From assembly GCA_000004985.1 (NCBI GenBank), contig GG739003.1: a DNA stretch of 12,219 nucleotides, one strand, 5' to 3'. Origin of the DNA: Naegleria gruberi (taxonomy: Eukaryota). Both the position numbers and the translations under genes were made by a program. Positions 8,212-10,937 of this stretch are shown piece by piece (the stretch's first letter is position 1; each line of letters opens with the position of its first letter). Below the pieces are notes generated by a model that saw nothing but the letters and a program-made list of their open reading frames with translations, had not been told where the DNA came from and ran no database searches.

Positions 8212-8285
8212 TATTCGTAATTTTTGGAGTAATTATTGGAAGAGCACTGAAGAAAGTTTCAGATGTGAGCATTTGGAAAAGTCAG
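8212..8285 (+). CDS. 7TM receptor-like protein, exon 2 (phase 1 in, phase 0 out): completes TM5 (…LL|VFVIFGVIIGRALKKVSDVSIWKSQ)
   Basis: Intron 8169-8211 (43 nt, gtaagtt…gaatag). The exon reads through in frame without stops and restores a hydrophobic helix. It is followed by the donor cag|gtatgtt at 8286. Confidence 0.55.
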
Positions 8286-8333
8286 GTATGTTTCTTCATT
8301 AACCTTTTCTAAATTATATTCGAAATCTTTCAG

Positions 8334-8639
8334 TTTGCCAAATATCTTGTATTTATCACTCTAGTTTACATTGCTTTCTGCATTTCTATTGCCCTAAGTC
8401 TTGGCATTTCCAATGAAAGTGCTCTGAAACAAACCCTCGACATATTATCAAGCTTAATTCTCCTTCTCGTTACAGCCAGTTTACTCAACATTGAATTCGA
8501 AATGGATGAATTGAAATCTTGCTATTCCTGTTGTTTCAAATCCAAACAAAATTTTTCCTCCAATCATTCACCACTTCTTCTTCATCATCATCCAGAACAA
8601 TCGAGCACTAATTACTATTCTGAAGTTATTGGAAATTGA
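8334..8639 (+). CDS. 7TM receptor-like protein, exon 3: TM6 (FAKYLVFITLVYIAFCISIALSLGI), TM7 (LDILSSLILLLVTASLLNI), cytoplasmic tail with CYSCC cluster and HHH; stop TGA 8637-8639
   Basis: Intron 8286-8333 (48 nt, gtatgtt…aatctttcag). The exon reads in frame from the TTTCAG acceptor to TGA. Confidence 0.6.
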   Translation, partial: FAKYLVFITLVYIAFCISIALSLGISNESALKQTLDILSSLILLLVTASLLNIEFEMDELKSCYSCCFKSKQNFSSNHSPLLLHHHPEQSSTNYYSEVIGN

Positions 8640-8682
8640 AACAATGAGCCAAACAGCAGTAGTGGTGGAAATGAAATCTCTA

Positions 8683-8803
8683 CTCGTACGTTTTAATTTT
8701 CCTCAGCACATCCAAGCTGCGTGCGCACCAATTTTCCTCTTGATTTTCATTCAAATTCGAAAAATAGACCTCTCCATCAAATAATTTCAAAAAAAAACAA
8801 AAC
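8683..8803 (-). repeat. Copy B of the repeated intergenic element (inverted relative to copy A at 1-113), between 7TM gene stop and SDR gene start
   Basis: The reverse complement of 8683-8735 matches 61-113 at 52 of 53 positions. The reverse complement of 8776-8803 (gttttgtttttttttgaaattatttgatg) matches 1-26. The core contains the palindromes GTGCGCAC (8721-8728) and CGTACG (8685-8690). Confidence 0.8.
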
Positions 8804-8855
8804 AACAACATCGCTCTCATAGCTAATCATCTGTACAAATTTATCAAGAAACAAA

Positions 8856-9713
8856 ATGGCCACTAAACAAGCATTGTGTGTTGGAGGTACATCAGGTATC
8901 GGAAGAGCATTGGCAATTAAATTCGCCTCTCAAAAATTCAATGTTTCAATCATGGGAAGAAGTGAAGAAGCAGGAAAGGAAATTATTGAAGAAATGAAAA
9001 AATTGAATCCAGATGGAAAATTTGAAATGATTAAAGTGGATGCCTCTCTCATGAAGGATATTGAAAAAGTGTGTGATGAATATAAACAAAATCATGATCG
9101 ATTGGATTATTGTGTTCTTTCACAGGGAATTGCAAGTATGAATGGAAGAACAGAAACAAAGGAAGGAATTGATGTAAAATTGGCACTTCATTATTATGGA
9201 AGAGTTATGTTTGTGAGACAATTGCAAGATTTATTGAGATTGACATCAAAGAATTCAGATGTGAGAGTCTTGACTGTTTTATCAGCTGGTGTTCATTCAC
9301 CTTACACTAAATTGGATGATTTGGATTTGAAACACAATTTTACATTGAAGAATGCAGCAGATGCAGCTGGATTTTACAATGATCTCGCCATGGATCAATT
9401 ATCCAAAGAAGAAGGCAATCAAAATATTGCATTCATTCATCAAGCTCCTGGATTCATTGCCACACAATGGGGACGTGAAATGCCAGCTGTCGTGAGATGG
9501 ACCACACGTTTCTTCCAAAACTTTGCCAGATCTCCAGAACAATGTGCCGACAATATTTACAAGGGATTAAGTTCAGAATCGACACGAAAGGGTTTCCATT
9601 TATTGGATGAACATGGAGAGCCAACAAAAGTGACAAAGAGTCATAGCGATAGTATCAGAGAAACAGTTTGGAAACACACTGTGGAATTGTTAAATAAGGC
9701 CCTTGGAAAATAA
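8856..9713 (+). CDS. Short-chain dehydrogenase/reductase (SDR) family Rossmann-fold protein, single exon; atypical (no canonical YxxxK)
   Basis: N-terminal VGGTSGIGRALA (TGxxxGxG dinucleotide-binding motif) with an IMGRS Arg after strand 2 (NADP-type). IHQAPGFIAT is a PG motif. The NNAG motif is replaced by LSQGIAS, and there is no Tyr-x3-Lys at the expected position. ATG at 8856, stop TAA at 9711-9713, AATAAA at 9741-9746. Confidence 0.7.
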   Translation: MATKQALCVGGTSGIGRALAIKFASQKFNVSIMGRSEEAGKEIIEEMKKLNPDGKFEMIKVDASLMKDIEKVCDEYKQNHDRLDYCVLSQGIASMNGRTETKEGIDVKLALHYYGRVMFVRQLQDLLRLTSKNSDVRVLTVLSAGVHSPYTKLDDLDLKHNFTLKNAADAAGFYNDLAMDQLSKEEGNQNIAFIHQAPGFIATQWGREMPAVVRWTTRFFQNFARSPEQCADNIYKGLSSESTRKGFHLLDEHGEPTKVTKSHSDSIRETVWKHTVELLNKALGK

Positions 9714-9944
9714 TCATTTAAAAACTAATAATTTGTAAATAATAAACTAAAACTAAATTAATTTCCTAATTTCATTTGGATAGCTCTTCAAATTTTTATG
9801 GTATTAATGCCACAAAGCAAAACTGAGCCATATACGACTTGAATCCAAACAGATTAAATGAATTTTACAGTTATTCGAATCTAATTATATTAATAGTTGT
9901 GAAAGATCAAAGTTCATTATCGTTGTAAAAAAAACAAGAAAAAA

Positions 9945-10937
9945 ATGCTTCCAATTCAACTCTTCGGACCCACGTGCGTTTTTGTTTCATCAAATGATGA
10001 AATTTTTATCGCTGATTGCAATAATCATCGAATTAGAAAATTAAATAATCAGAAAATCATGACAGTAGCAGGGAATGGTGAATTGGGGTTTTCGAGTGAT
10101 GGTGAATTGGCAATTAATGCTAAATTAAATTATCCGAATGGTGTGTTTGTTGTAAAGGAGGAAGTATATATTGCAGATTATCATAATCATCGAATTAGAA
10201 AGGTTTCGAATAATGCATAATTGAAACGATTGCTGGAAATGGAGAAGGTGGATTTGAAGGAGATAATGGTCCAGCTAAATTATCCAACGAGTGTGTTTGT
10301 TTCAGAAAATGGAGAAGTTTATATTTCGGATTATCTGAATAATCGAGTTAGAAAGGTTTTACAAAACGGAAATATTGTAACAATAGCAGGAAATGGAAAA
10401 TTAGGATGTTCAGGAGATGGTGGTTTGGCAATTAATGCCGAGCTCAACTGTCCAATGAATGTATTTGTATTCAACGAAGAGGTATATATTACGGATTCAG
10501 CAAATCATCGTATTAGAAAGGTTTCGAAAAGTGGAATAATTGAAACGATAGCTGGAAATGGAAACGAAGGATTCAGTGGAGATGACGGATTGGCCACTCA
10601 GGCTCAACTCAATTGTCCAATGAGCACATTTGTAAACTCTAATGGAGAAATTTATATTACAGATTCTAATAATTTTAGAATTAGAAAGGTTCAAAGAAAT
10701 GGAATAATTAAAACAATAGCAGGAAATGGAAATGATGGATTTGAAGGAGATGGTAGCTCAGCAACAAATGCCCAACTCAATTATCCAATGCATGTTTTTG
10801 TTTCTTCCAACGATGAAATGTATATATCCGATAGTGGCAATAATGCCATTCGAAAGGTATCAAGGAATGGAATTATTGAAACAGTAGCAGGAGAAGGGCC
10901 TTATTCACAAGGATACAGTGGCGATGTTTCGTTTTGA
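9945..10937 (+). CDS. Bacterial-type NHL-repeat beta-propeller protein: six tandem 54-56-aa repeats (consensus …TIAGNGxxGFSGDGGLAxxAQLNxPxxVFVxxxGEIYIxDxxNHRIRKVxxNGII…); frame disrupted at ~10215-10285 (possible pseudogene or assembly error)
   Basis: ATG at 9945 (AAAAAAATG context), stop TGA at 10935-10937. Repeat period is 162-168 nt, judged from the recurring attagaaagg landmark at 10032, 10194, ~10347, 10512, 10680 and ~10848. There is a single in-frame TAA at 10218-10220. The conserved peptide IIETIAGNGEGGFEGDNGPA is encoded in the +2 frame between 10217 and ~10276, and reading then returns to the original frame. Confidence 0.6.

What the first reader, a model, noticed from the sequence alone, without database searches (positions are those of the whole stretch)
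8683..8803. Partner copy (B) of the inverted element, filling most of the 216-bp spacer between the 7TM gene stop and the SDR gene start
Same element as at 1-113, in reverse orientation. It occupies the short intergenic spacer between two closely spaced same-strand genes, in what would be the SDR gene's proximal promoter or an intercistronic region. It abuts a (CAA)n tract at 8799-8810.
Basis: seen in the sequence. Interest (0 to 1): 0.5.

Follow-up and report, generated by a model that had tools for sequence, protein, structure and literature searches.

The report
Shared promoter of duplicated Naegleria genes
The "inverted element" is real, but it is most likely the shared upstream control region of two oppositely oriented copies of a dehydrogenase gene in the amoeba Naegleria gruberi, and it holds a short DNA motif found in front of this gene family in several related amoebae; this is ordinary biology, not a mobile element or an RNA gene.

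Summary
Observation confirmed. Window 8675-8802 is an inverted copy of 1-120 (E=1.5e-23). It has a 59-nt core (95% identical) and a 25-nt A-rich distal block (92%), separated by about 40 nt that do not align. The window is a complete 12,219-bp Naegleria gruberi NEG-M scaffold, so copy A is cut by a scaffold end. There is no nematode and no SL1/SL2 context.

Copy B lies 55-180 nt upstream of the SDR (FabG-like) ATG. Accession order on the allelic 304-kb scaffold places an inverted SDR paralogue on the copy-A side. That paralogue is identical in protein to the SDR allele over residues 1-198. The pair is therefore best read as the 5' flanks of two inverted paralogues that exchange sequence by gene conversion; mosaic patches are seen in a second strain.

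The core holds GCGTGCGCA, which includes the palindrome GTGCGCAC. This 9-mer occurs, with at most 1 mismatch, within 300 nt upstream of every SDR homologue examined (N. fowleri, N. lovaniensis, two Willaertia magna paralogues, two metagenomic relatives). It occurs in none of 15 control upstream regions.

I found no Rfam or tRNA match, no significant fold, no terminal inverted repeats, and no third copy in the window. Most likely it is a family-specific promoter module with an unknown transcription-factor site. Low to moderate interest.

The parts
8675..8802 (+). Copy B of the repeat: the whole homologous stretch, in the 216-bp spacer between the 7TM stop (8637-8639) and the SDR ATG (8856)
   Evidence: blastn 1-120 <-> 8802-8675, E=1.5e-23; nhmmer E=1.7e-34
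8680..8738 (+). Core block of copy B, 59 nt, 95% identical to copy A and 53/53 identical to the other strain (L001) over the anchored 53 nt
8719..8727 (+). GCGTGCGCA, the conserved SDR-family upstream motif. It overlaps the perfect palindrome GTGCGCAC (8721-8728) and is followed by CCAAT (8728-8732). It lies 137 nt before the SDR ATG.
   Evidence: The only 9-mer of the element present at <=1 mismatch in 6/6 foreign SDR upstream regions, and in 0/15 controls
8685..8690 (+). CGTACG, a second small palindrome in the core. It is conserved in copies A, B and L001 but not in other species.
8739..8776 (+). Variable middle segment. It is 50% alike between A and B and between window-B and L001-B, while L001-B is 78% like window copy A. 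It is a replaced or converted patch.
8777..8802 (+). Distal A-rich block TCAAATAATTTCAAAAAAAAACAAAAC. It is conserved in A (22/24) and L001 (26/26), and upstream of a third SDR paralogue type (L010 17-49, 29/33). It contains AATAAT (8780-8785).
8803..8855 (+). 53-nt leader between the repeat and the SDR start codon (presumed 5' UTR). The matching part of copy A would lie beyond the scaffold end.
8856..9713 (+). SDR / FabG-domain gene (XP_002668596.1), a single exon of 285 aa; the gene the element precedes
   Evidence: Pfam adh_short E=1.3e-15; 100% tblastn; identity
1..120 (-). Copy A, read on the minus strand as core -> middle -> distal block. It is cut off at base 1 by the scaffold end. It lies at the far end of the 729-nt intergenic region in front of the NHL gene (ATG at 730).
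58..116 (-). Core block of copy A; motif TGCGCACGC at 69-77 (+ strand reading), palindrome at 68-75, CGTACG at 106-111
1..25 (-). Distal A-rich block of copy A; the homology continues to the very last base of the scaffold

Best explanation
The two copies are the 5'-flanking regions (proximal promoter plus the start of the leader) of two inverted paralogues of a short-chain dehydrogenase/reductase gene in Naegleria gruberi. Copy B drives the SDR at 8856-9713. Copy A belongs to a paralogue on the minus strand just beyond the left end of this scaffold. The two genes bracket a block of five genes, with their 5' ends facing inward. The copies stay alike partly because the paralogues exchange sequence by gene conversion. 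They also stay alike because two blocks are functionally constrained. One is the core, whose heart GCGTGCGCA / GTGCGCAC is a palindromic binding site for an unidentified transcription factor that regulates this SDR family across Heterolobosea. The other is an A-rich distal block near the presumed transcription start. Shown: the repeat, its modular conservation, its position upstream of the SDR, the cross-species and family-specific conservation of the 9-mer, and the mosaic paralogue sequences. Inferred: that the paralogue directly adjoins copy A, that a protein binds the motif, and that the distal block marks the transcription start.
For: (1) The repeat is real and modular.
(2) The window is the whole 12,219-bp N. 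gruberi scaffold. Homology runs to its last base, as expected if the assembly broke inside a longer repeat.
(3) The allelic 304-kb scaffold carries the SDR allele (D2VW62, EFC39023) and an SDR paralogue (D2VW68, EFC38962). In the window, UniProt numbers follow position and EFC numbers list + strand genes before - strand genes (NHL 4Z6/35849, Tet 4Z7/35850, 254-aa 4Z9/35856, SDR 501/35852). Applying the same rules puts the paralogue on the opposite strand to the SDR and on the copy-A side. One same-strand gene lies between it and the 254-aa gene, and five genes lie between it and the SDR, matching the window's layout.
(4) The paralogue is identical to the SDR allele in residues 1-198 and diverges only after that. 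L001's SDR carries a paralogue-type patch at residues 251-266, and the middle of its element resembles copy A (31/40) rather than the window's copy B (26/49). This is patchy gene conversion between the two loci.
(5) GCGTGCGCA lies upstream of every SDR homologue fetched. It is exact in N. fowleri (115 nt before the ATG), N. lovaniensis (104 nt) and L006 (73 nt). It has one mismatch in L002 (78 nt) and in both divergent W. magna paralogues (67 and 264 nt). Per-region shuffle P is 0.0004-0.0014 for exact and 0.001-0.04 for <=1 mismatch.
(6) In an unbiased scan of all 9-mers of the element, it is the only non-low-complexity word shared by 6/6 regions, and 0/15 control upstream regions have it. 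In the 12-kb window even TGCGCA occurs only in the two copies.
(7) Neighbouring genes differ between species, so the motif travels with the SDR gene.
(8) The distal block recurs upstream of a third paralogue type.
Against: The DNA left of copy A could not be read. Adjacency of the paralogue rests on accession-order logic. No NHL or Tet allele is annotated on the 304-kb scaffold, so the two haplotypes may differ structurally and the two genes next to the paralogue there are unidentified. The high identity of the core between A and B could come from gene conversion alone. Between strains, the core is no better conserved than its flanks (95-99% everywhere except the middle). Motif orientation and distance to the ATG vary among species. 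I had no transcript, TSS or protein-binding data. The genome-wide copy number in N. gruberi was not measured. Copy B must also overlap the 3' UTR of the 7TM gene.
Confidence: 0.7

Rival explanations
1. It is a neutral remnant of an inverted segmental duplication. The similarity comes only from recent duplication and ongoing gene conversion between the SDR paralogues, and the sequence has no regulatory role of its own.
For: Gene conversion between the paralogues is clearly frequent: identical N-terminal 198 residues, and mosaic patches in L001. Between strains the core is not more conserved than flanking DNA. A 40-nt patch could be replaced without obvious consequence.
Against: The 9-mer at the heart of the core is retained upstream of SDR homologues in other genera, where the surrounding upstream DNA is unalignable and synteny is lost. 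It is absent from 15 control promoters. Conversion cannot explain conservation across species.
Confidence: 0.15
2. It is a short non-autonomous mobile element (MITE- or SINE-like) that inserted twice in opposite orientations into intergenic DNA.
For: There are two inverted copies in intergenic DNA about 8.6 kb apart. The genome-wide copy number is untested.
Against: There are no terminal inverted repeats, and no internal hairpin beyond shuffled-sequence expectation. There is no third copy in the window or in L001. Metagenome and viral collections give no copies apart from two chance 21-nt matches in 48%-GC contigs. The position is conserved in a second strain. Motif and distal block are tied to SDR genes in several species and paralogues.
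Confidence: 0.05
3. Copy B is mainly the 3' UTR / polyadenylation region of the upstream 7TM gene, or a small RNA gene.
For: The core begins 41 nt after the 7TM stop. The spacer has no canonical AAUAAA, which is the N. gruberi signal (PMC11529991). The nearest variant, AATAAT, lies in the distal block followed by an A-run. So the 7TM mRNA probably does run through the element.
Against: Copy A has no co-oriented gene in front of it: 121-729 is intergenic and the NHL gene diverges from it. The motif follows the SDR and not the neighbouring gene in other species. There is no Rfam hit on the element even at E<=10, no tRNA, and folding z-scores run from -1.8 to +0.8. The short ORF through the core has no start codon in copy A.
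Confidence: 0.07
4. It is an intercistronic region of an operon, processed by SL trans-splicing.
For: The only support is that the two genes are close together on the same strand.
Against: The organism is Naegleria gruberi, not a nematode. SL trans-splicing and operons are not described in this lineage as far as I know. The same blocks occur where there is no upstream co-oriented gene (copy A).
Confidence: 0.01

Closest known systems
Inverted paralogous gene pairs homogenised by interlocus gene conversion (for example, arm-to-arm conversion in palindromic duplications)
   Same: Two oppositely oriented gene copies share tracts of identity that include 5' flanks. The pattern is mosaic, differs between strains or haplotypes, and breaks assemblies.
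   Different: Here the arms are short. They are separated by a roughly 8.6-kb block of five unrelated genes. Only the outermost 120 nt of one arm is visible in this scaffold.
Family-specific proximal promoter elements with palindromic GC-rich transcription-factor sites in AT-rich protist promoters (the sequence resembles NRF1 GCGCATGCGC, the C/EBP TTGCGCAA palindrome, and the AhR/ARNT TGCGTG core)
   Same: A short GC-rich palindromic word lies 60-140 nt upstream of the ATG. It tolerates either orientation, is conserved across genera in otherwise unalignable promoters, and is sometimes next to a CCAAT box.
   Different: The binding factor is unknown. The word does not exactly match any of those consensus sites, and the resemblances come from memory only. 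I found no published Naegleria motif of this kind.
MITEs / short interspersed repeats
   Same: About 130 nt long, intergenic, and present in both orientations.
   Different: It has no terminal inverted repeats and no evidence of many copies. Its position is conserved relative to one gene family across species.

Membership tests
Cis-regulatory promoter module of a gene family | Lies in the proximal 5' flank of the gene, in all copies | tested here: met
   Copy B lies 55-180 nt before the SDR ATG. The motif lies 67-264 nt before the ATG in 7 other SDR genes. For copy A the downstream gene is inferred, not seen.
Cis-regulatory promoter module of a gene family | Conserved in orthologous promoters beyond the neutral background (phylogenetic footprint) | tested here: met
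   GCGTGCGCA at <=1 mismatch in 6/6 foreign upstream regions; it is the only such non-low-complexity 9-mer; shuffle P is 0.001-0.04 per region.
Cis-regulatory promoter module of a gene family | Specific to the family and not a general feature of promoters | tested here: met
   0/15 control upstream regions have it. In about 42 kb of heterolobosean DNA, exact hits occur only upstream of SDR genes.
Cis-regulatory promoter module of a gene family | Binds a transcription factor and affects transcription | not testable with these tools
   Needs EMSA or DAP-seq, reporter assays and TSS mapping.
Inverted segmental duplication carrying the SDR gene | A paralogous gene in inverted orientation next to copy A | tested here: inconclusive
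   Accession-order logic places paralogue XP_002671706 on the copy-A side and on the opposite strand. The DNA could not be fetched, and NHL/Tet alleles are missing on that scaffold.
Inverted segmental duplication carrying the SDR gene | Evidence of sequence exchange between the copies | tested here: met
   P0003 = P0001 over residues 1-198. L001's SDR has a paralogue-type patch at 251-266, and the middle of its element is copy-A-like.
MITE / TIR transposon | Terminal inverted repeats | tested here: not met
   No complementary ends are seen within 8675-8802 or 1-120.
MITE / TIR transposon | Target-site duplication | not testable with these tools
   One boundary of copy A lies beyond the scaffold end.
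MITE / TIR transposon | Many dispersed copies in the genome | tested here: inconclusive
   Only 2 copies in 10.8 kb of resolved window and 1 in L001 at the orthologous site. No true copies in the JGI metagenome or IMG/VR scans. The N. gruberi assembly itself could not be searched.
Structured non-coding RNA gene | Match to a known family, or a stable and conserved secondary structure | tested here: not met
   No Rfam hit on the element at E<=10 and no tRNA. MFE z-scores range from -1.8 to +0.8. The copies vary too little for a covariation test.
Nematode-type operon intercistronic region (SL2 trans-splicing) | Host lineage with SL trans-splicing and operons | tested here: not met
   The host is Naegleria gruberi. 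That SL trans-splicing is absent from this lineage is from my own knowledge.

The most novel reading that the evidence does not exclude
The two inverted SDR paralogues share at least about 600 bp of near-identical 5' coding sequence plus the promoter blocks, and their 5' ends face inward. They could act as recombination arms that invert the intervening 8.6-kb five-gene cassette (NHL, Tet-like dioxygenase, acidic protein, secreted 254-aa protein, 7TM) and swap promoters between the paralogues. On this reading, the separate 12-kb scaffold that ends exactly inside the repeat, and the missing NHL/Tet alleles on the 304-kb scaffold, are traces of a structural polymorphism between N. gruberi haplotypes.
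Probability: 0.1. Interest if true: 0.5.

Novelty: new member of a known kind. Interest (0 to 1): 0.27.

Why it matters
Almost nothing is known about promoters and transcription-factor sites in Naegleria or in Heterolobosea generally. This finding gives a short palindromic motif, GCGTGCGCA(Y), that is tied to one SDR gene family from Naegleria to Willaertia. It is a concrete, testable candidate cis-element. It could be used to search for a regulon and its factor, including in the pathogen N. fowleri. The finding also documents active gene conversion between inverted paralogues in N. gruberi and explains why this small scaffold ends where it does. Otherwise it is ordinary genome biology.

Tried and rejected
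- **Fetching N. gruberi DNA beyond the scaffold end.** The window proteins and P0001, P0003 and P0004 are not on record in the contig index.
- **Scanning collections for a 21-nt core pattern.** The JGI metagenome scan gave two hits in 48%-GC contigs that match only 22-25 nt, about the number expected by chance. IMG/VR gave none.
- **RNA tests.** Rfam at E<=10, ARAGORN and RNA folding of both strands showed nothing on the element.
- **Extension of the inverted homology into the 7TM coding sequence.** Rejected: only weak short matches such as 280-325 / 8338-8382, E=1e-4, and no paralogous ORF next to copy A.
- **A conserved small ORF through the core (LLVRFNFPQHIQ.ACAPIFL).** Rejected: copy A has an in-frame stop upstream and no ATG.
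- **The middle of window copy B as a local inversion of the L001/copy-A middle.** Not supported: the reverse-complement alignment scores no better than the direct one.
- **Confirming adjacency through NHL and Tet alleles on the 304-kb scaffold.** No such alleles are annotated.
- **The motif upstream of the P0004-type paralogue.** Only a 2-mismatch version was found, and the contig begins just before the distal block, so any core there is out of view.
- **Literature search for a known Naegleria promoter motif or repeat family.** Nothing relevant was found.

Full report

Yes. The repeat finder reports arms 58-116 / 8680-8738 (59 nt, 95% complementary) and 1-25 / 8777-8801 (25 nt, 92%). Gapped blastn joins them into 1-120 <-> 8802-8675 (79% over 128 columns, E=1.5e-23). 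A profile built from the three known copies finds only these two sites in the window (E about 1e-33), and the next hit has E>7.

The 7TM reading frame stops at 8637-8639 and the SDR ATG is at 8856. The spacer is therefore 216 bp and the repeat fills about 60% of it. The '(CAA)n tract' is only CAACAACA (8803-8810).

The repeat is modular:

| Segment | winA vs winB | winB vs L001-B | winA vs L001-B |
|---|---|---|---|
| Core | 52/53 | 53/53 | 52/53 |
| Middle | 24/48 | 26/49 | 31/40 |
| Distal | 22/24 | 26/26 | 22/24 |

**2. What is the sequence context?**

The SDR ORF is 100% identical to N. gruberi NEG-M XP_002668596.1. The record that carries it is 12,219 bp long, so the window is an entire small scaffold with two N gaps (974-1654, 2974-3717). 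Copy A is therefore cut off by a scaffold end, and its homology to copy B continues to the very last base.

The annotated NHL gene starts at 730. Bases 1-729 are thus intergenic, with copy A at the far end, away from the NHL gene. No minus-strand ORF ends next to copy A, and the homology does not extend into the 7TM coding sequence. The nematode framing (SL1/SL2) does not apply.

**3. What it is not.**

- There is no Rfam hit on the element even at E<=10, and no tRNA. Folding z-scores lie between -1.8 and +0.8 on either strand.
- There are no terminal inverted repeats.
- A scan of the JGI metagenome collection with a 21-nt core pattern returned two 48%-GC contigs that match only 22-25 nt, roughly the chance expectation. 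The viral collection returned none.
- A small ORF through the core is open in both copies but has no start codon in copy A.

**4. Where is the partner gene?**

On the allelic 304,373-bp scaffold N. gruberi has the SDR allele P0001 (99%; EFC39023; D2VW62). It also has a paralogue P0003 (88-90%; EFC38962; D2VW68).

I calibrated the numbering with four window genes:
- UniProt accessions follow position: NHL D2W4Z6, Tet-like D2W4Z7, 254-aa D2W4Z9, SDR D2W501.
- GenBank EFC numbers list + strand genes first (NHL 35849, Tet 35850, SDR 35852) and then - strand genes (254-aa 35856).

On the big scaffold the 254-aa allele (38960) and the paralogue (38962) are numbered below the SDR allele (39023). They therefore lie on the strand opposite to the SDR, and that scaffold is reversed relative to the window. 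Rising UniProt numbers from the SDR (62) to the paralogue (68) then run toward the window's left end. One same-strand gene separates the 254-aa gene from the paralogue (the acidic-protein gene in the window). Five genes separate the SDR from the paralogue, exactly the window's count between the SDR and copy A.

This places an inverted SDR paralogue just beyond copy A. Copy A would then stand in the same position and orientation relative to the paralogue as copy B does to the SDR.

The caveat is that this is inference from numbering. I could not fetch the DNA. No NHL or Tet allele is annotated on the big scaffold, so the haplotypes may differ there.

**5. Gene conversion.**

- P0003 is identical to P0001 over residues 1-198, including E53 and E74 where the window allele has D. 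It is diverged in the last roughly 88 residues.
- L001 is a 4.4-kb metagenomic contig from a closely related Naegleria, 97.3% identical to window 5957-9824. Its SDR carries a patch at residues 251-266 that is exactly the paralogue's version.
- In the element, 21 of the 37 differences between window and L001 across 820 nt fall in 8736-8777. There, L001 resembles window copy A (31/40) and not window copy B (26/49).

The two loci evidently exchange patches repeatedly. The core and distal blocks survived a complete replacement of the spacer between them.

**6. Is there function in the core?**

I fetched the upstream regions of SDR homologues from N. fowleri (L005), N. lovaniensis (L009), Willaertia magna (L007, two divergently arranged paralogues) and two metagenomic relatives (L006, L002). 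The 9-mer GCGTGCGCA (8719-8727, overlapping the perfect palindrome GTGCGCAC) appears in each:

| Locus | Match | Distance to ATG |
|---|---|---|
| N. fowleri (L005) | exact | 115 nt |
| N. lovaniensis (L009) | exact | 104 nt |
| L006 | exact | 73 nt |
| L002 | 1 mismatch | 78 nt |
| W. magna paralogue 1 | 1 mismatch | 67 nt |
| W. magna paralogue 2 | 1 mismatch | 264 nt |

- Per-region probabilities from shuffles are 0.0004-0.0014 for an exact match and 0.001-0.04 for <=1 mismatch.
- In an unbiased scan of every 9-mer of copy B against those six regions, this word is the only one found in 6/6. The other multi-region words are A/T-rich low-complexity strings. None of 15 control upstream regions from the same loci has it.
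- In the 12-kb window even the hexamer TGCGCA occurs only in the two copies.
- Neighbouring genes differ between species: 7TM in N. gruberi, a 379-aa gene in N. fowleri, Brix in N. lovaniensis, a tRNA-Cys in L002/L006. The motif therefore follows the SDR gene.
- Orientation varies, which a palindromic site tolerates.
- The three Naegleria species share CTGCGTGCGCA followed by a CCAAT/ATTGG within about 20 nt and an A-run 50-60 nt further on.
- The two W. magna paralogues share their own roughly 50-nt upstream block ending in the motif.
- The distal block recurs upstream of a third N. gruberi-type paralogue (L010 17-49, 29/33, E about 3e-6).

**7. Mechanism.**

The best-supported reading is a family-specific proximal promoter module. 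It has a palindromic GC-rich transcription-factor site, possibly paired with a CCAAT box, and an A-rich block near the transcription start. The module was duplicated together with the gene and is kept similar by selection on the two blocks and by gene conversion.

Copy B must also be crossed by the 7TM mRNA's 3' end. N. gruberi uses AAUAAA (PMC11529991), the spacer has none, and the nearest variant, AATAAT at 8780-8785, lies in the distal block. A secondary role in 3'-end formation cannot be excluded, but it cannot explain copy A or the cross-species pattern.

The binding factor is unknown. Resemblances to NRF1, C/EBP or AhR/ARNT sites come from memory and are inexact.

**8. Novelty and verdict.**

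This is ordinary genome architecture: paralogous promoters in an inverted duplication with gene conversion. The small new item is a candidate heterolobosean cis-element that, as far as I could find, has not been described.

The most novel reading not excluded is that the inverted paralogues mediate inversion of the five-gene block between haplotypes and swap promoters. I put that at about 10%.

Interest is low to moderate.

Noticed in passing
window 3718-4515 (+), with upstream exons lost in the N gap 2974-3717: This is a Tet/JBP-like dioxygenase gene (XP_002668594.1). The full-length version from a related strain (P0130, 309 aa) matches the solved Naegleria Tet-like dioxygenase NgTet1 (4LT5, 5CG8) at E about 2.5e-26, so it is a paralogue of NgTet1. 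No allele of it is annotated on the 304-kb scaffold.
   Followed up: partly
window 9824 onward versus L001 3850-4366: The related strain's contig stops aligning with the window about 110 nt after the SDR stop. It then carries a minus-strand TLDc-like gene where the window has a plus-strand NHL-repeat gene. This is a structural difference between strains or haplotypes immediately downstream of the SDR.
   Followed up: partly
L002 364-455 and 1547-1638; L006 633-724: In two metagenomic SDR homologue loci, a 92-nt (long, probably intron-containing) tRNA-Cys(GCA) gene lies about 150 nt upstream of the SDR ATG, just before the conserved motif. L002 has a second copy downstream of the SDR.
   Followed up: no
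L007 804-1946 (-) and 4001-4888 (+): Willaertia magna also has two SDR paralogues in divergent orientation, 87% identical to each other, separated by about 2 kb with no called gene. They share a roughly 50-nt upstream block. Either the divergent pair is ancient and evolves in concert, or it arose independently, as in N. gruberi.
   Followed up: partly
window 244-263 versus 8744-8763: A 20-nt stretch in the variable middle of copy B (TTTTCATTCAAATTCGAAAA) is 90% complementary to a stretch about 130 nt from copy A. It could be chance, or a trace of the rearrangement that replaced the middle segment.
   Followed up: no
window 4653-5459 (-): This ORF encodes a very acidic, Glu-rich 268-aa protein beginning MGSACSS, a possible N-myristoylation motif. 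Its repetitive GAA/GAG codons account for most of the direct-repeat families reported in the window. The exact ORF is not the annotated model.
   Followed up: no
window 1823-2530 and 9945-10937: There are two separate NHL-repeat (six-bladed propeller) genes, one on each side of the block, with weak DNA-level repeat similarity between them (family D10). Annotators split the second into two ORFs at 10220/10221.
   Followed up: no
window 7370-7456 (+): There is a sub-threshold Rfam match to the C/D-box snoRNA family snR60/Z15 (26 bits against a gathering score of 41, E=0.97) inside the 7TM coding exon. It is most likely chance.
   Followed up: no
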